Assembly (NCBI GenBank): GCA_965262615.1 | Contig: OZ253545.1 | Location: forward strand, 192,001-256,000 | Source: Alphaproteobacteria bacterium | GTDB taxonomy: Bacteria > Pseudomonadota > Alphaproteobacteria > GM7ARS4 > G965262615 | Direction of reading: 5' to 3' | Length of the DNA stretch: 64,000 nt | Part shown: piece by piece, positions 21,085-29,189 of the stretch | Numbering within the stretch: the first letter of the stretch is position 1 | How the letters are laid out: each line of letters starts with the position of its first letter | The notes under the pieces: model-generated | Databases searched by the model: none | Seen by the model: only the letters and a program-made list of their open reading frames with translations | Told to the model about the DNA's origin: nothing | Translations under genes and position numbers: made by a program

Positions 21085-21495
21085 TTATTTTTTGAACACC
21101 CACCAGCGGAGAATAATGAAATTAATTATTGGTATACACACCACGACAATCAGCACCGCCAGCCATGGATGCCATTGCATCTCAGTAATCCATTCAGACA
21201 CAAGGATGGTGAAAACGAGTCCCACTGATGCCAGCAGAAGAAACTTTGTGTATTGATTCAATGACAGCTTCTTGGTTTGAAAGACAAAAAAATTCGCCAT
21301 GAGGTATGACCCTATATTGGCGATGAGAAACGCTCCGCCGTTGGCTTGAGTGACGCTCCATTCGTGTTCACGCGCCAGGGCAAAGCATCCGATGTGAATG
21401 AGGGTGGCGATGATGCCGGCGATGATGTACCGCCCCAAACTTTTAACGAGTGCGCCGTTTTGTGCGATGAGGCTTTGAAGTTTGGCGATTATCAT
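21085..21495 (-). CDS. GtrA family flippase-like membrane protein
   Basis: Four TMs; RY..AG, AN..AF, N.FFVF, C-terminal NFIILRWWVF; start uncertain (21495 or 21537). Confidence 0.85.
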   Translation of the reverse strand: MIIAKLQSLIAQNGALVKSLGRYIIAGIIATLIHIGCFALAREHEWSVTQANGGAFLIANIGSYLMANFFVFQTKKLSLNQYTKFLLLASVGLVFTILVSEWITEMQWHPWLAVLIVVVCIPIINFIILRWWVFKK

Positions 21496-22420
21496 GGACG
21501 GCGGCGATGATGTAGGGCGGTCGTTTTTTGCTCTCAATCAGCGTGTGAGCGGCGTATTCCCCGATAACACCCAGCACGAACAATTGCAATCCGCCCATAA
21601 AAAAGATGGCAAAAAGTAGTGTGCTGGTGTCGGTGCTGAGGTTGAACACAGAGACATCAATCGCGAGCATCGCGGCGCCACAGACGGCGGCGATGATGGC
21701 AATGAGCATCCCCACATACATCCACAGACGCAACGGCGCAATGGAAAATGAGACAATGCCAACGGTGGCTTGTTTGATGAGGGCGGCGAGATTGAATTTA
21801 GACCTGCCCTTGCTGCGTTTGGCTCGGGTGTAGGTGATGAATTGCTGTTTGAATCCTGCCCATGCGAAGATTCCCTTCATGAAGATGGTGTGTTCGTTGA
21901 GGGAGCGGATGGCGGTGACGACTTTTTGATCCAACAGTCGAAAATCCCCCGCATTGGGCTGAATGGGAACATGGGCGATGCGTTTCATGATGGCATAAAA
22001 AAATTGCGCCGAGACGCGTTTGAACCAGCTGTCGGCGGAGCGGTCAGAACGAATACCAATGACAGTCTCTGCCCCTTGTTGCCATTTTTTCACCATGTGA
22101 GGGATGATGTCGGGAGGGTCTTGCAAATCTATGTCGCAGGGGATGACGGCATCGCCCGTGGTGTGATGCAATCCCGCCACCAGAGCGGGTTCTTTGCCGA
22201 AATTGCGTGACAGACGCACCAGACGGATGGTGTGTTTTTTCTCGCGAGCGATGCGGTGTTCAATGAGGGCGGCGGTGGCATCGGTGCTGCCATCATCCAC
22301 AAAGACGAACTCCCAGCGCATGGTGGACAAACGGCGAGCGATGGGCGTGATGCTCTCCCAGAACGGACCCAGGGCATCTTCTTCGTTGTAACAGGGAATG
22401 ACGAGGCTGATGGTTTTCAT
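21443..22420 (-). CDS. GT2 bactoprenol glucosyltransferase (GtrB-like)
   Basis: SLVIPCYNEE, VDDGSTD, LSRNFGKE, DIDLQDPP, GDFRLLD, two C-terminal TMs. Confidence 0.93.
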   Translation of the reverse strand: MKTISLVIPCYNEEDALGPFWESITPIARRLSTMRWEFVFVDDGSTDATAALIEHRIAREKKHTIRLVRLSRNFGKEPALVAGLHHTTGDAVIPCDIDLQDPPDIIPHMVKKWQQGAETVIGIRSDRSADSWFKRVSAQFFYAIMKRIAHVPIQPNAGDFRLLDQKVVTAIRSLNEHTIFMKGIFAWAGFKQQFITYTRAKRSKGRSKFNLAALIKQATVGIVSFSIAPLRLWMYVGMLIAIIAAVCGAAMLAIDVSVFNLSTDTSTLLFAIFFMGGLQLFVLGVIGEYAAHTLIESKKRPPYIIAAVHDNRQTSKPHRTKRRTR

Positions 22421-22438
22421 AACGCAAAGCTGCATGCG

Positions 22439-22512
22439 CGCGCCCGGGAGGACTCGAACCCCCAACCTCCTGATCCGTAGTCAGACGCTCTATCCAATTG
22501 AACTACGGGCGC
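22439..22512 (-). tRNA. tRNA-Arg(ACG)
   Basis: Reverse complement GCGCCCGTAGTTCAATTGGATAGAGCGTCTGACTACGGATCAGGAGG...GTTCGAGTCC...GGGCGCG. Confidence 0.96.
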
Positions 22513-22521
22513 AGCAAAAAC

Positions 22522-22550
22522 ACCATACAAATTATCCCACACACTCGCAA
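22522..22550 (-). promoter_or_regulatory. Putative sigma70 promoter of tRNA-Arg
   Basis: TTGCGA-17 nt-TATGGT ending 9 nt before the tRNA 5' end. Confidence 0.5.
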
Positions 22551-22563
22551 GCGTCAGATGGTT

Positions 22564-23031
22564 CTAAAAACCGAGAATGGCTTGTCCGTTCCAATCGGTT
22601 TGGAAGATGCCTCTCGCAAGAATATCACGCCCCAGTAGCACATCGTGGTCTGTTGAAAGAGTCTGATATTCAGCTACTTGAGTGCTTTCAAAGGCAGTAA
22701 GGGCATTCCCCATCGGTATAATTAGGGTAACGAAGTAAGCTCTCACCTCAGAGACACCTGTCGCCGAATTCGCAGTAATCAAGCCTGATGACTCAAGATT
22801 TAATTTTTGGGAAAGTCTTTGGCTGATATAACTGACAGAAGACCCTGTATGCACGAGACAAAAAGCCTCCTCCATCGTAAGATTTTCTTTTTTCCTATCT
22901 TGAGCACGGTCACCAATGGCAAACCCCATTGGCACATTTTCTTCAATTTCAACAGCACTCTTTCCTGTGACGACAGATACAGGAATAATCACTCCTTTTT
23001 CAGAATCAAACGAAACCCTCAGCAGTGACAT
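22564..23031 (-). CDS. Retropepsin-like aspartyl protease homolog, catalytic Asp replaced by His
   Basis: CLVHTGSS where the paralogs have CLIDTGA; LLGRDIL and C-terminal strand intact. Confidence 0.85.
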   Translation of the reverse strand: MSLLRVSFDSEKGVIIPVSVVTGKSAVEIEENVPMGFAIGDRAQDRKKENLTMEEAFCLVHTGSSVSYISQRLSQKLNLESSGLITANSATGVSEVRAYFVTLIIPMGNALTAFESTQVAEYQTLSTDHDVLLGRDILARGIFQTDWNGQAILGF

Positions 23032-23036
23032 GCTGA

Positions 23037-23288
23037 TTAAGCAGGCATTGCAGGGAATGTGATGACATCAATTGGCTTTTGTCCAACTTGTTGGACGCTG
23101 TAATTATCGTCATCGTAGGTATCAAGGGCGTGTTTGTGGGCGAGGCGGGCGGTATCAAAAACGCCGATGAGTTTTTGGTCACGCAGGAGGGCATACTTGC
23201 CTTTATCTGCTTTTTTGAATTGAGCGGACATTTTTTGAAAGGCATCAAAATTCGCCTTAATCATGGTGTCTCGGTCGGTCATTGTCAT
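23037..23288 (-). CDS. Small DUF5678-like protein, copy 1
   Basis: NFDAF...GKYALLRDQKLIGVFDT...A...Y...YSVQQV; AGAGGA RBS; family name from pattern recall. Confidence 0.75.
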   Translation of the reverse strand: MTMTDRDTMIKANFDAFQKMSAQFKKADKGKYALLRDQKLIGVFDTARLAHKHALDTYDDDNYSVQQVGQKPIDVITFPAMPA

Positions 23289-23519
23289 TGCATCCTCTGG
23301 GTTTGTTTGATGGGTTCATTGTGGTGTTTTTTTTGCAAGAAGTCAATATTTTTGGTGATTGGTCATTTTTTTTGTTTTCGGTTTGAGGGATGGGTGATGT
23401 CGGTGGGGTTGGTGTCAATGGCTCAGAAGTGGCGGCGGGACTGTTGGGCGATGATTCCTGCCCCGCACCAATTGCCATCACTCGCAAGCGTCAGATGGTT
23501 CTAAAAACCGAGAATGGCT

Positions 23520-23915
23520 TCAATCGGTTTGGAAGATGCCTTTCATAAGAATATCGCGCCCCAGTAGCACATCGTGACCTTTCCCTCCTCCGTATTCAGC
23601 CACTTGGGTGGATTCAAAAAAATGGAAGGAATTCCCCATTGGTATTATTAAAGTGACAAGGTAAGTTTTCATCCTCACTTTTTCTGATGCGGTCAGCATT
23701 GTTATCATCCCTGATCGCTCAAGCTTTAATTTTTCGGCAAGTCTTTCGCTGACACAGCTGATGCCAGCTCCCGTATCTATGAGACAGTTAAACTTCGGCA
23801 ACGTTTTAATGTATTTTCCTTTATCCTCAATCGCAACGGTGTTTTTACCTGTTGCAATGAACACGGGAATAGTGACCCCTTTTTGAGGGTCAAATTGAAC
23901 TTTCAGAAGAGCCAT
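23520..23915 (-). CDS. Retropepsin-like aspartyl protease, C-terminally truncated by an 8-bp deletion
   Basis: CLIDTGAG, LLGRDIL; ends QTD* and lacks the WNGKAILGF tail of the paralogs. Confidence 0.85.
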   Translation of the reverse strand: MALLKVQFDPQKGVTIPVFIATGKNTVAIEDKGKYIKTLPKFNCLIDTGAGISCVSERLAEKLKLERSGMITMLTASEKVRMKTYLVTLIIPMGNSFHFFESTQVAEYGGGKGHDVLLGRDILMKGIFQTD

Positions 23916-23920
23916 ACCGA

Positions 23921-24196
23921 TTAAGCAGAAAGTGCAGGAAATGTGATGACTTCAATTGGCTCTTGTCCAATTTCTTGGAAGCTGTAGTTGTTATCTTTGA
24001 ATTTCTCAAGGGCGTGTTTGCGAGCTTCTCGGGCGGTGGCAAAAATGCCGACGAGTTTTTGATCGCGCAGAAGCGCGTATTTGCCCTTGTCTTCTTTTTT
24101 GAATTGAGAAGACATTTTTTCAAAGGCATCAAAATTTGCCAAAAGCATGGCATCTCTGTCGGTCATCATGGTTTTATTGTAGTGAATTTTGGTCAT
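23921..24196 (-). CDS. Small DUF5678-like protein, copy 2
   Basis: Paralog of 23037-23288; GAGGGA RBS before ATG 24196. Confidence 0.75.
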   Translation of the reverse strand: MTKIHYNKTMMTDRDAMLLANFDAFEKMSSQFKKEDKGKYALLRDQKLVGIFATAREARKHALEKFKDNNYSFQEIGQEPIEVITFPALSA

Positions 24197-24358
24197 TGTG
24201 TCATCCCTCATTTTTTGTGGTTTTGGTTTTTTGGATGCGATTTGAGGGATGGGTGAGGGTGGTGAGGGTGGTGTCAATGGCTCTGAAGTGGCGGCGGGAC
24301 TGTTGGGCGATGATTCCTGCCCGTACCAACTGCCATCCCTCGCAAGCGTCAGATTGTT

Positions 24359-24793
24359 TCAAAAACCGAGAATGGCTTTCCCGTTCCAATCGGTTTGGAA
24401 GATGCCTTTCATAAGAATATCGCGCCCCAGTAGCACATCGTGACTTTTCCCTCCTCCGTATTCAGCCACTTGGGTGGATTCAAAAAAATGGAAGGAATTC
24501 CCCATTGGTATTATGAAAGTGACAAGGTAAGTTTTCACCCTCACTTTTTCTGATGCGGTCAGCATTGGTATCATCCCTGATTTCTTAAGTTTTAATTTTT
24601 CGGCAAGTCTTTCGCTGACACAACTTCGAGAAGCTCCCGTATCTATGAGACAGCCAAACTTCGGCATTGTTTTGATGTCTTTCTCTCCACTTCTCACTCT
24701 ATCCTCAATTGTAGCAGTGTCTTTGCCTGTTACAACAAACACGGGAATGATGACCCCTTTTTGAGGGGCAAATTGAACTTTCAGAAGAGCCAT
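24359..24793 (-). CDS. Retropepsin-like (clan AA) aspartyl protease, apparently intact
   Basis: CLIDTGAS catalytic motif, LLGRDIL psi-loop, complete C-terminus. Confidence 0.9.
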   Translation of the reverse strand: MALLKVQFAPQKGVIIPVFVVTGKDTATIEDRVRSGEKDIKTMPKFGCLIDTGASRSCVSERLAEKLKLKKSGMIPMLTASEKVRVKTYLVTFIIPMGNSFHFFESTQVAEYGGGKSHDVLLGRDILMKGIFQTDWNGKAILGF

Positions 24794-24798
24794 GCTGA

Positions 24799-25074
24799 TT
24801 AAGCAGAGATGACGCGGAACAAAGGAATCTCAAGTGGCTCGCATCCAATTTCTTGAAAGCTGTAGTTGTCATCATCGTAGGTCTCAAGGGCGTGTTTGTG
24901 GGCGAGGTGGGCGGTGGCAAAAATGCCGACGAGTTTTTGATCGCGCAGAAGCGCGTATTTTCCCTTGTCTTCTTTTTTGAATTGAGAAGACATTTTTTCA
25001 AAGGCATCAAAATTTGCCTCAATCATGGCATCTCTGTCGGTCATCATGGTTTTATTGTAGTGAATTTTGGTCAT
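24799..25074 (-). CDS. Small DUF5678-like protein, copy 3
   Basis: Paralog of the other two; GAGGGA RBS before ATG 25074. Confidence 0.75.
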   Translation of the reverse strand: MTKIHYNKTMMTDRDAMIEANFDAFEKMSSQFKKEDKGKYALLRDQKLVGIFATAHLAHKHALETYDDDNYSFQEIGCEPLEIPLFRVISA

Positions 25075-25265
25075 TGTGTCATCCCTCATTTTTTGTGGTT
25101 TTGGTTTTTTGGATGCGGTTTTGGGCGGGGGTGAGGAAGGTGGGGTTGGTATCAATGCCGTAGATAATGTCACCCTTGCCGAAGAGTCAAAGCGTTCCAG
25201 CTTGTGATGAACGCGCCAATGGTTTATCATGTCCTCATGCCACCCTCGCCAAACACCGTATCCAT

Positions 25266-25293
25266 AAAACAAAACCCATCTCGTAGGATGGGA
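25266..25293 (-). terminator. Intrinsic terminator after the HicBA-like pair
   Basis: Minus strand CCCATC-CTACGA-GATGGG followed by TTTTGTTTT. Confidence 0.6.
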
Positions 25294-25298
25294 AGCTG

Positions 25299-25523
25299 CT
25301 ACACATAATCCTCAAATCGCTTCAGTGGCAACTTAAGACGCTCACACATTTTTTTAATCATTCTAGGATGCATCTGCACATGATCATCCAAAACAGGTGT
25401 CCACAGCAACACGCCATCATGACGATGCGTTAGATGCCTGATTTCAATTTCTTGAATCTCACAAGAAAACTCCTCAATGGCAATGGCTTCAAATTCTTTG
25501 TAGAGAAGCCGCCGCGGCATCAC
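25299..25523 (-). CDS. Small protein, possibly HicA-like toxin
   Basis: 74 aa with a helix-strands-helix pattern (…WTPVLDDH…MIKKMCERLKL); overlaps the stop of the HicB-like gene; canonical GSH absent. Confidence 0.4.
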   Translation of the reverse strand: MMPRRLLYKEFEAIAIEEFSCEIQEIEIRHLTHRHDGVLLWTPVLDDHVQMHPRMIKKMCERLKLPLKRFEDYV

Positions 25524-25909
25524 GCCGCCACCCGATAATCAATCATATCAGAGAAGTCTTGAGATGGCGGCAAAGCAAAAGACTTCGGCAACAAAGACTT
25601 CTCTTGAGGAGCAATCTTGCTTTTAGGAATAAACTCATCCTTGATGCCCAAAGCATCCTCATACATATCCCAATACTCTTGGGGAGCTTTCTCAATGGCA
25701 TCCAATCCCTCATAGCCATACTGAGCACACAAAACCAACTCGGCATAGAGCGTCTTGACGAAATTGAGCATCACATCTTTCGCGCTATCGCCCTGCGCCG
25801 CAATATAATGCTCCAGACCGACCGCGACATAGCCCATCGTGTCCTTCACGATGACAACGCTGATTTTTCCGCTCGTAGCTTTTGTATCCACAGCAAGACT
25901 TTCACTCAT
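25520..25909 (-). CDS. HicB-like antitoxin-domain protein
   Basis: VVIVKD..GYVAVGLEHYIAAQGDSAKDV..N resembles the HicB N-terminal domain. Confidence 0.55.
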   Translation of the reverse strand: MSESLAVDTKATSGKISVVIVKDTMGYVAVGLEHYIAAQGDSAKDVMLNFVKTLYAELVLCAQYGYEGLDAIEKAPQEYWDMYEDALGIKDEFIPKSKIAPQEKSLLPKSFALPPSQDFSDMIDYRVAA

Positions 25910-26009
25910 TCGCGACCTCCATTGCCCACCAATATAGTCATTTTCATCTTCAATGAAAACCCCTCATGACCATATTGTCGTGACCGCGTCAATCGTCTAT
26001 CATGTTCTC

Positions 26010-26363
26010 ATGTCTCTTGATGAATCTCAATTTCTGCACGAAGCCGAACACACCCTCACCCACCTCTTTGACGAGCTGGAATCCGCCGAGGGAGCGTTTG
26101 ATATAGACACCGAAGAAGGCGACACCATCACCATCACGCTGGATGAAGGCGGGGTTTATATCATCAGCAAACACACCGCCAGCCAGCAATTGTGGCTGTC
26201 GTCGCCGCATTCGGGCGCAAGCCATTATGAGTATCATCTCAGCGAGGAGAGTGAGCATCCCGCCGACAACTGGCGCAACACTCGCGCCACAGACGATGAT
26301 GCTCAAACCCTCAAAACCACACTCTTTGACGAACTGAAACAATACGCGAGCGCGGTGCTGTGA
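26010..26363 (+). CDS. cyaY: Frataxin-like iron donor protein
   Basis: YIISKHTASQQLWLSSPHSGASHY; acidic N-terminal helix. Confidence 0.9.
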   Translation: MSLDESQFLHEAEHTLTHLFDELESAEGAFDIDTEEGDTITITLDEGGVYIISKHTASQQLWLSSPHSGASHYEYHLSEESEHPADNWRNTRATDDDAQTLKTTLFDELKQYASAVL

Positions 26364-27419
26364 TTACTCACCCGCCTGCTCGCGCTGCTTGAGCTGCTGC
26401 AACCAACGCAACACCGCCGCCACCGCCTCAATCAAATGGGTGGGGATGTAGTGGTCCACGGGAACTTCATCATAGAGCGCATGGGCAAGCGGAACATTAC
26501 GCATCACGGGAATGCCCTCTTGCTCCGCCGTCTTGATGATGAGGCGCGCCAGATGCTCCTCCCCCTTCGCCATCACCACTGGCAATTTGCCGGACTCCTT
26601 ATCATAAAACAACGCCACCGCCCGATGGGTGGGATTGGTCACAATCACCGAAGCTTTTTTGACTTTTTGCGTCATGTCATTCATCGCCATCTCTTGAGCC
26701 ATCTGTCGCCGCTTGGATTTAATCACGGGGTCGCCCTCCATCTCTTTGAACTCACGCTTGACCTCATCCTTCGTCATCATCAAATCCTTCGTGTGCAACT
26801 TGCGCTTGATGATGATGTCCGCCGCGCCCACAATCACAAAACACAAACACGCATAAAACATCAGTAACCAATAGGAATCAAACAGCACACTCTGAACGCA
26901 TCGCATTCCGCACGATGGCGCAATGAGTAGAACGGGCAGGAGGTGGTCTATCACCTTGTAGAGAAGCACCGTCATGAACACCACCTTGAAAACATTCATC
27001 ACAAACTCCAGCAACTTGCGCTTGCCAAACATGTTCTTGCCATTCTCAACCGGATTCAAACGCTTGATATCCATCTTGACCGCTTTGGGAGCAAACACGG
27101 GTCCCGTTTGTCCGATGTAGGCAAGCAACGCAACCACAAACACAACCCCCAACAACGGCAGCAACAAATGACTCATCATCTGCACAATGGCGTGCTGCAA
27201 AATAATCAAAGCCGTCTGCTGCGATGACATGATGGCTTGCACCACCTCATCAATGGTGAGCTCAAAGGTTTCATGAAACACGCCCACTCTTTGCAATAAA
27301 AAAGCCGACACCGCCACCAACAACACCGCCGAGGCAAAGTCTTTGCTGATGGCGACCTGTCCTTTTTCACGAGCTTCGCGAATCTTCTTGGGCGTTGGCT
27401 GTTCGGTTTTTTCAGCCAT
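26364..27419 (-). CDS. sctU: Type III secretion export switch protein SctU (YscU family)
   Basis: MAEKTEQPTPKKIREAREKGQV, MTKDEVKREFKEMEGDP, NPTH autocleavage motif. Confidence 0.92.
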   Translation of the reverse strand: MAEKTEQPTPKKIREAREKGQVAISKDFASAVLLVAVSAFLLQRVGVFHETFELTIDEVVQAIMSSQQTALIILQHAIVQMMSHLLLPLLGVVFVVALLAYIGQTGPVFAPKAVKMDIKRLNPVENGKNMFGKRKLLEFVMNVFKVVFMTVLLYKVIDHLLPVLLIAPSCGMRCVQSVLFDSYWLLMFYACLCFVIVGAADIIIKRKLHTKDLMMTKDEVKREFKEMEGDPVIKSKRRQMAQEMAMNDMTQKVKKASVIVTNPTHRAVALFYDKESGKLPVVMAKGEEHLARLIIKTAEQEGIPVMRNVPLAHALYDEVPVDHYIPTHLIEAVAAVLRWLQQLKQREQAGE

Positions 27420-28212
27420 CCTGATAGTCCTCTTGTTGCACGGCATCCATGATGTCTCGCATGATGCGCTCCATTTCAAACAATTCATCGCGCAGGTAGG
27501 GCATCACGGTGGACACATACACCCCCAGCATGAAAATGGCGATGCCACTCTTGATGGAAAACGCTATGTTAAAAACATTCAATTGCGGCGCAAAACGACT
27601 GATTAACGCCAGAGACCATTCGGCAAGCATCATGACAATAATCACTGGCGCGGCAATGCGCACCGCCGTGTGAAGCAGAAAATCCAGCATGGACAAAAAG
27701 TAACCGCTTTTTTCCAAAGGAAAAGTGGGATAAAACGAATCAAAACGCCAAATCTCATAGCTGAGGGCAAGAGATGTCAGCAGCAGATGCAAGCCGCCAC
27801 TGATGATGAAATACACCATGAACACATGCAAAAGCATCATGCCGATGGGTGAGGATTGCGAGCCGGTCAATGGGTCAAGGGAGGATGCGATGGTTGCGCC
27901 TCGCTGGTTGTCAATAAAGACTCCCACCGCCTGCACCGCCCAAAAAATCGTGGCAACCCCCATGCCCAACAAAAATCCCAGCAAATACTCCTTCGCCACC
28001 AGCCCGGCAATGTGCCAATGACTCACATCAGCATGGGGGGCGGTGTGATAAAAGGAAACAATGAACGGCATCGCCAAAGCCACAATCACCGCCGTGCGCA
28101 CAGTGCCACTGATGGTGGAGGACGCAAAAATAGGAACAATAGAAAAAAATCCCATCAAGCGCGCCGATGCCAAAAACAAATGCGAGATAAAAACAACCAG
28201 ACTCTGTTCCAT
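27412..28212 (-). CDS. sctT: Type III secretion export protein SctT
   Basis: IDNQRGATIASSLDP, LISRFAPQLNVF. Confidence 0.92.
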   Translation of the reverse strand: MEQSLVVFISHLFLASARLMGFFSIVPIFASSTISGTVRTAVIVALAMPFIVSFYHTAPHADVSHWHIAGLVAKEYLLGFLLGMGVATIFWAVQAVGVFIDNQRGATIASSLDPLTGSQSSPIGMMLLHVFMVYFIISGGLHLLLTSLALSYEIWRFDSFYPTFPLEKSGYFLSMLDFLLHTAVRIAAPVIIVMMLAEWSLALISRFAPQLNVFNIAFSIKSGIAIFMLGVYVSTVMPYLRDELFEMERIMRDIMDAVQQEDYQDG

Positions 28213-28218
28213 ACCGCC

Positions 28219-28491
28219 TCAACGATTTTGCACGGTGGGAATGGCATCAAAGGAGTGAATGGCGAATTGATAGAGCTCTGAGCCAATGTTGCTGGCAGTG
28301 GCATAGATGGCAAAACTCACAGCAATCAATTTGACGGCAAAGGAAAGCGTTTGTTCCTGAATTTGCGTGAGTGCCTGCACCAGACTGAACGCCACCCCCA
28401 CCACCGCCGCCACAATAATGGGAGGCATTGATAAATGAAGCACCAACAACAAAATGGCAGATGTCTGTTCGGTGAGATGATGAGCATCCAT
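28219..28491 (-). CDS. sctS: Type III secretion export protein SctS
   Basis: QALTQIQEQTLSFAVKL. Confidence 0.92.
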   Translation of the reverse strand: MDAHHLTEQTSAILLLVLHLSMPPIIVAAVVGVAFSLVQALTQIQEQTLSFAVKLIAVSFAIYATASNIGSELYQFAIHSFDAIPTVQNR

Positions 28492-29189
28492 TATGCTGGG
28501 ACTCCGTAGGTCAAAATGAGCCCTTCAATGAGTCTGCGCCAGCCGTCAATGATGACAAAAAGCAGCAGTTTAAGAGGCAGAGAGATGGTCATGGGTGACA
28601 TCATCATCATGCCCATCGCCAGCAGGATGTTGGAGACCACCAAATCAACGGCGATAAAGGGCAGATAAAGCAAAAACCCGATTTCAAAGGCTTCGGTCAA
28701 TTCGGTGAGCATAAACGCAGGGATGAGAATACTAAAGGGAGGCTCGCCCGTTGGGTTGTCTTGAGGAATCAGTTGTTCGAACTCATGGGTGGTTTTGTCT
28801 CTGTACACCTCCCAGATGTTTTTGCTGAGGTTTTGAAAAAATTCAATGTCCTGAGTGCTGGCGTGCAGAAACAGAAAATGACGAAAGGGCTGACTGGCTT
28901 TTTCTAAAAAAGCGATGGCATCGGGGAGGTCTTGCGGCAGAGGGTCGTGCTGCACCAATGCCAACGCATCAAGAAAGACGGGTGTCATCACATAGAGGGT
29001 GAGGATGAAGGCGAAGGCGTACAGTGCCATGTTGGGCGGGATTTGTTGGACACCCAAAGCGTTACGCACCAATGATAAAACCACGGCGATTTTGACAAAG
29101 GAAGTGGTCATGAGAGCCAAGACTGGCAACAACGAAAAAGCGATCAAAAGGACAAAGAGCGGCCCCGTCGCGGGCAATCCTGTGGTCAT
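28491..29189 (-). CDS. sctR: Type III secretion export protein SctR
   Basis: TSFVKIAVVLSLVRNALGVQQIPPNMAL, LAMGMMMMSPMTISLPLKLLLF..DGW. Confidence 0.93.
   Translation of the reverse strand: MTTGLPATGPLFVLLIAFSLLPVLALMTTSFVKIAVVLSLVRNALGVQQIPPNMALYAFAFILTLYVMTPVFLDALALVQHDPLPQDLPDAIAFLEKASQPFRHFLFLHASTQDIEFFQNLSKNIWEVYRDKTTHEFEQLIPQDNPTGEPPFSILIPAFMLTELTEAFEIGFLLYLPFIAVDLVVSNILLAMGMMMMSPMTISLPLKLLLFVIIDGWRRLIEGLILTYGVPA

What the first reader, a model, noticed from the sequence alone, without database searches (positions are those of the whole stretch)
22543..25150. Triplicated two-gene module: small DUF5678-like protein plus retropepsin-like protease (best candidate for an undescribed system)
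Seen: three head-to-tail copies of a gene for an 83-91 aa protein followed 5 nt later by a single-domain aspartyl protease gene (DTG and LLGRD motifs, no signal peptide). The array is AT-richer than the flanks and sits directly upstream of tRNA-Arg. The small proteins share a core but differ in the C-terminal tail (PIDVITFPAMPA / PIEVITFPALSA / PLEIPLFRVISA), and copy 3 looks mosaic. Known: clan AA retropepsins act as homodimers. Inference: tight coupling, small size, amplification and a neighbouring HicBA-like pair suggest a toxin-antitoxin-like or defence module. The variable tail could be a substrate, inhibitor or specificity element for the cognate protease.
Basis: partly seen in the sequence, partly recalled or inferred. 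Interest (0 to 1): 0.8.

Follow-up and report, generated by a model that had tools for sequence, protein, structure and literature searches.

The report
Tripled small-protein plus retropepsin-like protease cassette
A low-GC islet next to a tRNA gene carries three old, diverged copies of a gene pair (a small DUF5678-like protein followed by a cytoplasmic HIV-protease-like enzyme), a pairing that matches no described system, and only one of the three protease genes is still intact.

Summary
The array is real, with corrections. On the minus strand, three head-to-tail units (spacing 866-929 nt) each hold an 83-91 aa gene, a 5-nt gap, then a 131-155 aa single-domain clan-AA aspartic protease gene. 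The array ends 51 nt before tRNA-Arg(ACG). It lies in a 3.4-kb islet of GC 0.45, against 0.52-0.54 in the flanks.

The copies are old paralogues (dS 0.16-0.92, dN/dS 0.23-0.51), not an assembly artefact.

- Copy 1 has His-Thr-Gly in place of the catalytic Asp-Thr-Gly.
- Copy 2 has an 8-nt deletion that removes the last 9 residues.

Only copy 3 is intact. All three small genes are intact.

The small protein belongs to a large, unnamed family: 380 representatives at 50% identity, and 1355 clusters at 90%. The family is remotely DUF5678-like by profile and by fold. The model shows a helix, a beta-beta-alpha-beta core and a low-confidence C-terminal tail.

Close relatives keep the pair together. 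No TA, defence, phage, plasmid or PDB match was found, and no paper.

My best reading (confidence 0.35) is a translationally coupled regulator-protease, antitoxin/toxin-like cassette.

The parts
22438..22512 (-). tRNA-Arg (anticodon ACG). It bounds the islet and lies 51 nt downstream of the last protease stop on the same strand.
   Evidence: ARAGORN; Rfam tRNA model, 60.2 bits
22564..23031 (-). Protease copy 1 (155 aa). Retropepsin-like, but with His61-Thr-Gly-Ser in place of Asp-Thr-Gly-Ala, and an extra loop of about 10 residues before the active-site strand. Probably catalytically dead.
   Evidence: ORF. PF13975 scores 23.1 bits and PF13650 20.3 bits, both below the cutoffs. Alignment A2: the only one of 11 sequences without the Asp.
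23037..23288 (-). Small protein copy 1 (83 aa), intact, tail PIDVITFPAMPA. AGAGGA lies 4 nt before its ATG.
   Evidence: Its closest relatives are 91% identical.
23289..23519 (-). Spacer and leader between unit 2 and unit 1. It shares the conserved stretch 'CTGACGCTTGCGAG...CATTGACACCA' with the other unit junctions.
   Evidence: Repeat families D4, D7 and D8; DNA alignment A4
23520..23915 (-). Protease copy 2 (131 aa). DTG is intact, but an 8-nt deletion creates a stop right after ...FQTD, so the last 9 residues (the C-terminal strand) are lost.
   Evidence: A4 columns 966-973; A2. PF13975 scores 34.9 bits and PF13650 28.7 bits, both above the cutoffs.
23921..24196 (-). Small protein copy 2 (91 aa), intact, tail PIEVITFPALSA.
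24197..24358 (-). Spacer and leader between unit 3 and unit 2. It holds a 9-nt inverted repeat (24202-24210 / 24243-24251) that could pair the GAGGGA ribosome-binding site.
24359..24793 (-). Protease copy 3 (144 aa). This is the only copy with DTGA, LLGRD and the full C-terminus.
   Evidence: PF13975 scores 32.8 bits and PF13650 31.0 bits, above the cutoffs; A2. A relative 99% identical exists elsewhere (P0001).
24799..25074 (-). Small protein copy 3 (91 aa), intact, tail PLEIPLFRVISA, mosaic relative to copies 1 and 2.
   Evidence: A relative 95% identical exists (P0015).
25075..25170 (-). Leader of unit 3. Similarity to the other units starts near 25160 (CATTGATACCA).
   Evidence: Repeat family D7; A4
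25275..25292 (-). Terminator-like hairpin followed by a T-run. It separates the upstream gene pair from the array.
25299..25909 (-). Upstream pair in the same low-GC islet: a 129-aa gene (25520-25909) overlapping a 74-aa gene (25299-25523) by 4 nt. It may be HicB/HicA-like, which is unproven.
   Evidence: ORFs. No Pfam, NCBIfam or PADLOC match, and only weak PHROGs matches to families of unknown function. The nearest Atlas cluster scores 0.93 and is automatically named HicB family antitoxin. No PDB sequence match.

Best explanation
Shown:
- A horizontally acquired islet between tRNA-Arg and cyaY carries three old paralogous cassettes. Each cassette encodes a small DUF5678-like protein directly followed by a cytoplasmic single-domain retropepsin-like aspartic protease.
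- Only cassette 3 still encodes a protease with every catalytic hallmark. All three small genes are intact.

Inferred:
- The pair works as a regulator-protease, antitoxin/toxin-like module.
- The protease gene has no ribosome-binding site of its own and starts 5 nt after the small gene's stop. It is therefore probably translated by coupling and never made without its partner.
- The small protein folds into a compact helix plus beta-beta-alpha-beta core. It would use its flexible, aromatic C-terminal tail to occupy the substrate cleft or the terminal dimer sheet of its cognate protease, and so keep it silent.
- Loss or displacement of the small protein would free the homodimeric protease to cut cellular or invading proteins.
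- The two cassettes with damaged proteases would be the usual end state of such modules: the harmful partner decays and the protective partner is kept.
For: - Architecture: the 5-nt stop-to-start gap is conserved in all three units, and no purine-rich site lies before the protease ATG.
- Protease identity: PF13975 and PF13650 score above their cutoffs for copies 2 and 3, which carry DTGA and LLGRD. An Ala after DTG is described as typical of the retroviral type in passages of PMC12239564.
- The pair is kept in relatives: 4 of 8 protease clusters share a contig length with a small-protein cluster, and P0010 reads through into the protease.
- Selection: dN/dS is 0.23-0.44 for the small genes and 0.37-0.51 for the protease genes, with dS 0.16-0.92.
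- Asymmetric decay: the His61 substitution and the 8-nt deletion hit 2 of 3 protease genes and 0 of 3 small genes.
- Small-protein model: pLDDT 85, with the tail (residues 66-81) at 55-60.
- Tail motif: an aromatic residue is conserved in the tail across the wide family, as ...P-I-D-L-G-F-F/W-S-H-A.
- Foreign origin: the islet has GC 0.45, and the protease genes have GC3 0.38-0.41 against 0.50-0.68 for five neighbouring genes.
- Weak co-variation: three protease columns (positions 47, 56 and 117 of copy 3) split perfectly by the partner's tail class over 7 pairs. This holds even though tail class cuts across overall protease similarity.
Against:
- There is no match to any TA or defence family.
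- The small protein has no recognisable DNA-binding domain, unlike most type II antitoxins.
- The co-variation is weak. The observed split ranks 5th of 35 possible 3-versus-4 splits, and about 3 columns differing in both sister pairs would be expected by chance.
- Decay of two proteases is equally expected if a single protease serves all three small proteins.
- Whether the wide small-protein family (380 representatives, 1355 clusters) is generally paired with proteases is unknown. None of the 14 longer family members scanned carried a protease domain.
- The protease model failed (pLDDT 40), so the fold rests on profile matches and motifs only.
Confidence: 0.35

Rival explanations
1. Substrate and processing enzyme. 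The small protein is a precursor whose C-terminal tail (or the core released from it) is cut by the protease. One live protease (copy 3) is enough to process all three precursors.
For: - The tails of copies 1 and 2 contain Phe-Pro. Aromatic-Pro bonds are classic retroviral protease sites (recalled, not tested here).
- The tail is the only flexible part of the model.
- Loss of two redundant proteases alongside three intact small genes fits this reading.
- Translational coupling would also suit an enzyme-substrate pair.
Against: - Across the wide family the tail is a conserved motif, not a hypervariable product region.
- No export, modification or receptor genes lie in the islet.
- Each cassette carries its own diverged protease, with hints of matching to the tail class.
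Confidence: 0.2
2. A decaying remnant. The cassettes are leftovers of a mobile element or of an ancient duplication and no longer act as a system. The pairing is historical, and the lesions in copies 1 and 2 mark ongoing loss.
For: - Two of 3 proteases are damaged.
- The islet is low in GC and lies next to a tRNA.
- The protease family is very rare: 8 clusters among 5.8 billion proteins by word search. It is absent from the genome, plasmid and phage collections searched.
Against: - dN/dS stays well below 1 for both genes across all copy pairs.
- All small genes, and copy 3 in full, are intact.
- Relatives elsewhere keep full-length pairs.
Confidence: 0.2
3. Adaptor or chaperone. The small protein is a positive partner that helps the protease dimerise or brings it a specific substrate. 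The module would then have a housekeeping or stress role like RimB/RloA, not an addiction or defence role.
For: - Characterised bacterial retropepsin-like enzymes have physiological roles (abstracts and listing; passages of PMC12239564).
- The wide family of the small protein occurs on contigs of 2.4-7.1 Mb, which are probably chromosomes.
Against: - The islet has foreign composition.
- There are three diverged copies rather than one conserved operon.
- The protease clade is very rare.
- The proteases resemble neither any solved chain (none at E<=1) nor any Pfam family beyond PF13975, PF13650, RVP and RVP_2.
Confidence: 0.15
4. Assembly artefact. The three copies are collapsed or expanded alleles from a mixed population, not a true tandem array.
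For: All close relatives come from metagenome-type sources, so the window may be from an assembled population genome.
Against: - The copies differ by dS 0.16-0.92, by indels and by different junction spacers (231 versus 162 nt). They are joined by unique sequence at both ends.
- Such divergence does not arise from mis-assembly of one locus.
Confidence: 0.03

Closest known systems
Prokaryotic single-domain clan-AA peptidases (Pfam PF13975 gag-asp_proteas / PF13650 Asp_protease_2; the 'pSNCAPs' COG5550/COG3577 of Llorens et al. 2009, PMC2642776)
   Same: - Similar size (131-155 aa here, against about 120 residues in that paper).
- DTGA active-site loop, and a hydrophobic-hydrophobic-Gly (LLG-RD) motif near the C-terminus.
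- No second lobe, so a homodimer is expected.
- The profile matches exceed the Pfam cutoffs for copies 2 and 3.
   Different: - The TIGR03698 subfamily cutoff is not reached (23-24 bits against 57.35).
- The N-terminus before DTG is longer (50 residues).
- This clade is always seen with a DUF5678-like upstream partner.
- The passages read say 'little is known' about these enzymes and mention no partner.
RimB / RloA retropepsin-like proteases of Pseudomonas, and APRc of Rickettsia
   Same: Bacterial enzymes with a retropepsin fold, a DTG(A) motif and homodimeric catalysis (passages of PMC12239564; titles and abstracts).
   Different: - There is no detectable sequence relationship. No solved chain matched the window protease at E<=1 or its profile at E<=0.01.
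- RimB works with RimK and RimA on ribosomal protein S6. RloA enzymes have signal peptides. APRc is membrane-associated.
- None is described with a small upstream partner or in tandem arrays.
Type II toxin-antitoxin operons
   Same: - Two small, coupled genes, with the putative neutraliser first.
- Located on a foreign islet beside another possible TA pair.
- Multiple diverged paralogues, and decay of the putative toxin while the partner stays intact.
   Different: - To my knowledge (recalled), and in the paper searches, no TA toxin is an aspartic protease.
- The small protein has no recognisable DNA-binding domain.
- Nothing matched in PADLOC or NCBIfam.
- Toxicity and neutralisation are untested.
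DUF5678 (PF18929) small proteins
   Same: - The beta-beta-alpha-beta core.
- 12 of 83 aligned family members match PF18929 at E<=0.01, and 3 of 40 scanned reach its cutoff.
- Two of the six best BFVD fold matches are named DUF5678 proteins.
   Different: - The window proteins score only about 12 bits.
- This family adds an N-terminal helix (N-Y/F-x-A-F) and a conserved C-terminal tail that the 49-position Pfam model does not cover.
- DUF5678 itself has no known function. One unrelated paper mentions it.

Membership tests
Clan AA retropepsin-like aspartic peptidase (PF13975 / PF13650) | Profile match above the curated cutoff | tested here: met
   Copy 2 scores 34.9 and 28.7 bits, and copy 3 scores 32.8 and 31.0 bits, against cutoffs of 28.2 and 24.3. 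Copy 1 scores 23.1 and 20.3 bits, below both cutoffs.
Clan AA retropepsin-like aspartic peptidase (PF13975 / PF13650) | Catalytic Asp-Thr/Ser-Gly motif (followed by Ala in the retroviral type) | tested here: met
   Copies 2 and 3 carry DTGA. The feature is NOT met in copy 1, which reads HTGS.
Clan AA retropepsin-like aspartic peptidase (PF13975 / PF13650) | Hydrophobic-hydrophobic-Gly motif (LLG-RD) and a complete C-terminal strand for the dimer sheet | tested here: met
   LLGRD is present in all three copies. The C-terminal 9 residues are missing in copy 2.
Clan AA retropepsin-like aspartic peptidase (PF13975 / PF13650) | Retropepsin fold and homodimer | tested here: inconclusive
   The AlphaFold2 model from 11 close sequences has pLDDT 40 and is unusable. 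There is no PDB sequence relative. Dimerisation is not testable here.
TIGR03698 clan AA aspartic protease (AF_0612 subfamily) | Score above the NCBIfam cutoff | tested here: not met
   23.4 and 24.4 bits against 57.35.
DUF5678 (PF18929) | Profile match above the cutoff of 23.2 bits | tested here: not met
   Window copies score 12.6 and 12.3 bits, and one copy has no match. Relatives bridge the gap: 3 of 40 reach the cutoff and 12 of 83 match at E<=0.01. The fold matches named DUF5678 proteins at E 0.012-0.027.
Type II toxin-antitoxin system | Two adjacent co-oriented small genes in one operon | tested here: met
   A 5-nt gap in all three units.
Type II toxin-antitoxin system | One product is toxic and the other neutralises it by direct binding | not testable with these tools
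Type II toxin-antitoxin system | Membership of a known toxin or antitoxin family, or a DNA-binding antitoxin domain | tested here: not met
   No TA family was found in Pfam, NCBIfam or PADLOC for either protein.
Anti-phage defence system | Match to a known defence protein model | tested here: not met
   PADLOC gives no hit apart from a chance-level GajA fragment at E 0.012.
Anti-phage defence system | Enrichment of homologues in defence islands | not tested
The single genome-contig scan returned only two unrelated loci.
HicAB (neighbouring pair 25299-25909) | HicA (PF07927) or HicB profile match | tested here: not met
   No match in Pfam or NCBIfam at E<=1. The only support is an Atlas look-alike cluster at 0.93, automatically named HicB family antitoxin.

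The most novel reading that the evidence does not exclude
This is the founding example of a toxin-antitoxin or abortive-infection family whose effector is a cytoplasmic retropepsin-like aspartic protease. The protease is silenced by a DUF5678-like partner, whose C-terminal aromatic tail acts as a pseudo-substrate or dimerisation blocker. The wide, unnamed small-protein family (at least 1355 clusters, also present in phages by fold) would then be a widespread, unrecognised neutraliser or regulator domain.
Probability: 0.22. Interest if true: 0.8.

Novelty: new variant of a known kind. Interest (0 to 1): 0.55.

Why it matters
- Single-domain retropepsin-like proteases are common in bacteria, but only a few have a known role: RimB, RloA and APRc.
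- None of those is known to have a dedicated small partner. A partner-controlled cytoplasmic aspartic protease would add a new enzyme class to toxin-antitoxin or defence effectors.
- It would also give a first function to a DUF5678-like family with more than a thousand clusters that carry no name other than 'hypothetical protein'.
- The window supplies a natural experiment. It holds three cognate pairs with different tails, plus one dead-site protease and one truncated protease as built-in controls.
- If the pair turns out to be an ordinary enzyme-substrate or adaptor pair, it still annotates a large unknown family.

Tried and rejected
- **Complex prediction** of a protease dimer with the small protein was not available and nothing was folded. 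Binding therefore stays untested.
- **Protease structure:** pLDDT 40 from 11 close sequences, so no fold search was run on it.
- **Genome context of relatives:** One is a 411-aa two-lobed protease with no small partner. The other is a 14-residue motif match. Neither is relevant.
- **tblastn against plasmids and phages**, using the window proteins and three wider-family members, found nothing.
- **PDB:** no sequence match for either protein. Foldseek with the small-protein model gave 0 matches at E<=0.001.
- **PHROGs** gave only matches of unknown function at E>=0.01. **PADLOC** gave none. **Rfam** found only the tRNA.
- **Cluster look-ups** gave no accession numbers or gene indices that could prove adjacency.
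- **Fusion ('Rosetta stone') check:** the longer family members are tandem doubles of the small domain or carry unrelated extensions. None has a protease domain.
- **tRNA-targeted integration** was considered and not supported. The islet lies on the 5' side of the tRNA, no integrase is present, and no flanking direct repeat of 20 nt or more was found.
- **Operator search:** inverted repeats in the leaders are not shared by the three units.
- **Paper searches** that found nothing relevant: DUF5678 (1 unrelated paper); retropepsin-like + toxin-antitoxin (0); Asp_protease_2 + antitoxin (0); retropepsin + bacterial + antitoxin (1 paper, on archaeal CRISPR-linked retropepsins; passages read); aspartyl protease + anti-phage + defense system (0); PF13975/PF13650 (eukaryotic transposon papers only).


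Full report
**1. What is in the sequence**

All genes of the finding lie on the minus strand. Reading 5' to 3' on that strand, the order is as follows.

| Feature | Coordinates | Notes |
|---|---|---|
| 129-aa gene | 25520-25909 | overlaps the next gene by 4 nt |
| 74-aa gene | 25299-25523 | |
| Terminator-like hairpin | 25292-25275 | |
| Unit 3, small gene S3 | 24799-25074 | |
| Unit 3, protease P3 | 24359-24793 | 144 aa |
| Unit 2, S2 | 23921-24196 | |
| Unit 2, P2 | 23520-23915 | 131 aa |
| Unit 1, S1 | 23037-23288 | |
| Unit 1, P1 | 22564-23031 | 155 aa |
| tRNA-Arg(ACG) | 22512-22438 | 51 nt after P1 |

- In every unit the small gene's TAA is followed by 5 nt and then the protease ATG. 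No purine-rich ribosome-binding site lies in front of that ATG.
- Unit spacing is 866-929 nt. Tandem Repeats Finder is blind to this, because its period limit is 500 nt.
- tblastn of the six products against the whole window finds exactly three copies of each and nothing else.
- The islet 22513-25950 has GC 0.45, against 0.537 and 0.518 in the flanking 10 kb. The protease genes have GC3 0.38-0.41, against 0.50-0.68 for five neighbouring genes.
- The neighbours are ordinary chromosomal genes. On one side are a GT2 glycosyltransferase, GtrA, BolA, an ABC-2 permease, an aminotransferase and an ornithine/aspartate carbamoyltransferase. On the other side are frataxin/CyaY and the flagellar export genes FlhB, FliR, FliQ, FliP and FliN.
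- I did not determine the organism.

**2. The copies are old paralogues, and two proteases are damaged**

- Nei-Gojobori estimates on codon alignments:

| Pair | dS | dN/dS |
|---|---|---|
| S2-S3 | 0.28 | 0.44 |
| S1-S2, S1-S3 | 0.62-0.76 | 0.23-0.28 |
| P2-P3 | 0.16 | 0.51 |
| P1-P2, P1-P3 | 0.90-0.92 | 0.37-0.38 |

- This rules out a recent amplification or a collapsed repeat. It also shows purifying selection over most of the copies' history.
- P1 carries His61-Thr-Gly-Ser where all ten other aligned sequences have Asp-Thr-Gly-Ala. Its nearest relative P0007 (65% identical) has the Asp. P1 also falls below both Pfam cutoffs.
- P2 has an 8-nt deletion that puts a stop right after ...FQTD and removes the last 9 residues. 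The downstream sequence is still recognisable out of frame.
- In retropepsins the C-terminal strand forms part of the dimer sheet (established knowledge of the family, recalled).
- P3 alone has DTGA, LLGRD and the full C-terminus. A relative 99% identical exists elsewhere (P0001).
- All three small genes are full length compared with 12 relatives.

**3. What the proteins are**

*Protease*
- PF13975 (gag-asp_proteas) and PF13650 (Asp_protease_2) score above their cutoffs for P2 and P3. RVP and RVP_2 give weaker matches. TIGR03698 scores only 23-24 bits against a cutoff of 57.
- No solved structure is related by sequence, either at E<=1 for the single protein or at E<=0.01 for the profile.
- The AlphaFold2 model from 11 close sequences failed (pLDDT 40). 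The fold assignment therefore rests on profiles and motifs.

*Small protein*
- Pfam gives only sub-threshold DUF5678 (12.3-12.6 bits) and DUF7336.
- An exhaustive HMMER search with a 15-sequence profile found 380 representatives at E<=0.001 and 24 at E<=1e-10. Most are 80-120 aa long.
- A word-seeded profile search found 1355 clusters at E<=1e-5. The only names given are 'hypothetical protein', for example in Kiloniellaceae and Sphingomicrobium MAG records.
- Some members sit on contigs of 2.4-7.1 Mb.
- Nine of 40 scanned relatives match DUF5678 at E<=0.01, and three of them reach the cutoff. Twelve of the 83 aligned members match at E<=0.01.
- The AlphaFold2 model from 83 sequences has pLDDT 85 and pTM 0.69. 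It shows helix 3-21, strands 30-34 and 37-42, helix 45-55 and strand 62-65. Only the last 16 residues fall to pLDDT 55-60.
- Foldseek finds nothing in the PDB at E<=0.001.
- In the viral predicted-structure library it finds one match at E 6.7e-4 (TM 0.68), plus two Pandoravirus proteins named DUF5678 at E 0.012 and 0.027, and unnamed phage proteins.
- The family adds two things to the DUF5678 core. One is an N-terminal helix with N-[YF]-x-A-F. The other is a conserved C-terminal motif, which in the wide family reads ...FSIQEV...P-I-D-L-G-F-[FW]-S-H-A. In the window's clade it reads P-I-[DE]-V-I-T-F-P-A or P-L-E-I-P-L-F-R-V.
- Natural tandem-double versions of the domain exist: P0021, P0023, P0024, P0079, P0082 and P0122.

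**4. Is the pair conserved?**

- The word-seeded search found only 8 protease clusters (59-99% identity) and 12 small-protein clusters (68-91%). All come from metagenome-type sources.
- Four of the 8 protease clusters share an exact contig length with a small-protein cluster or member: 7926, 57788, 4634 and 147434 nt. This is indirect evidence for the same contig. For the two short contigs it suggests they lie close together.
- P0010 is a small-protein gene call that runs through the stop and contains the P1-type N-terminus MSLLRV. That shows the same junction in another genome.
- Beyond this clade I could not look.
- Whether the wide small-protein family is generally coupled to proteases is therefore the main open question. 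None of the 14 longer family members scanned carries a protease domain.

**5. How it most likely works**

*Shown*
- Tight gene coupling.
- A foreign islet.
- Old, diverged paralogues under purifying selection.
- A compact small protein with a flexible, aromatic tail.
- A protease with retroviral-type active-site motifs and no signal-like N-terminus.
- Decay of 2 of 3 proteases and 0 of 3 small genes.

*Inferred*
- The protease is made only by reinitiation after the small gene, so it never appears without its partner.
- The partner holds it inactive through its tail, either in the cleft as a pseudo-substrate or in the terminal dimer sheet.
- Release of the protease harms the cell or an invader.
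- The asymmetric decay is what is commonly seen when a toxic partner is lost and the protective one is kept.

*A weak hint of specificity*
- Over the 7 pairs whose partners can be assigned, three protease columns split perfectly by tail class ('ITFPA' versus 'PLFRVIS'). These are positions 47, 56 and 117 of P3.
- Tail class cuts across overall similarity. P2 is closest to P3, and P0004 is closest to P0002.
- Counted from the catalytic Asp and from the Gly of LLG, positions 56 and 117 fall where HIV-1 protease contacts substrate, at Asp30 and the '80s loop'. This numbering is recalled and mapped by offset only, with no structural alignment.
- The signal is not significant. The split ranks 5th of 35 possible splits, and 7 columns differ in both sister pairs.

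I put 0.35 on this reading.

**6. Rivals**

- **Precursor plus processing enzyme (0.20).** The Phe-Pro in two tails resembles retroviral cleavage sites (recalled). One live protease could serve three substrates, which explains the decay equally well. Against it, the tail is a conserved motif rather than a variable product, and no export or modification genes are present.
- **Decaying remnant (0.20).** This fits the two lesions and the rarity of the family. Against it, dN/dS stays well below 1 and relatives keep intact pairs.
- **Positive adaptor or chaperone with a physiological role like RimB/RloA (0.15).** Against it stand the foreign composition and the multiple diverged copies.
- **Assembly artefact (0.03).** Against it stand the divergence, the indels and the distinct spacers.

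**7. Comparison with what is known**

- The protease is a new, distant member of the prokaryotic single-domain clan-AA peptidases. Passages of Llorens et al. 2009 (PMC2642776) say of these that little is known.
- The characterised bacterial examples are RimB, the secreted RloA enzymes and APRc (titles and abstracts; passages of PMC12239564). They are unrelated in sequence. They have other partners or locations, and none is described with a small upstream partner.
- A retropepsin-domain protein of about 100 aa linked to type III CRISPR loci in Sulfolobales is listed in PMC3973734 (passages). I did not compare it.
- No searched paper links a retropepsin-like protease with a toxin-antitoxin or anti-phage role. 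DUF5678 occurs in one unrelated paper. Subscription journals are not covered by these searches.

**8. Verdict**

It is one intact cassette plus two cassettes with crippled proteases.
- The pairing is conserved in a narrow, rare clade, and it matches nothing described.
- The TA-like or defence reading is plausible but untested. An enzyme-substrate reading explains most of the same facts.
- Novelty: a new variant of a known kind, namely a partner-coupled clan-AA protease with possible TA-like logic.
- Interest: 0.55.

Noticed in passing
window 25299-25909 (minus strand): A 129-aa gene and a 74-aa gene overlap by 4 nt, lie in the same low-GC islet, and are followed by a terminator-like hairpin (25292-25275). 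Pfam, NCBIfam and PADLOC give no match. The nearest language-model cluster for the 129-aa protein (0.93) is automatically named HicB family antitoxin. Nothing supports a HicA assignment for the 74-aa protein.
   Followed up: partly
window 24202-24210 / 24243-24251: A perfect 9-nt inverted repeat in the leader of unit 2 pairs the putative ribosome-binding site (GAGGGA) of the small gene with an upstream anti-sequence. Unit 1 keeps only the upstream arm and unit 3 only the downstream arm.
   Followed up: partly
window 23019-23036 (minus strand): A 6-bp hairpin (TCAGCA...TGCTGA) encloses the start codon of protease copy 1. By eye, units 2 and 3 have only a 4-bp version. It might gate translational coupling.
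   Followed up: no
proteins P0021, P0023, P0024, P0079, P0082, P0122: Natural tandem-double fusions of the small-protein domain (168-234 aa) exist in the wider family. This suggests the domain may act as a dimer.
   Followed up: no
window 21443-22465 versus 22438-22512: The longest ORF of the GT2 glycosyltransferase (TTG start) overlaps the tRNA-Arg gene by 28 nt. The real start is probably an internal ATG (…MKTISLVIPCYNEED), which would leave the tRNA clear.
   Followed up: no
window 26364-29575 (minus strand) and 25953-26363 (plus strand): The flagellar-type export genes FliN-C, FliP, FliQ, FliR and FlhB lie directly beside a frataxin/CyaY gene that bounds the islet. The Pfam matches do not tell the two apart.
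   Followed up: partly
protein P0030: A 2026-aa surface-type protein with DUF5979, SpaA, FctA and thioester domains matched the small-protein profile in 11 short stretches (profile positions 21-51). This is most likely a repeat or composition artefact, not homology.
   Followed up: no
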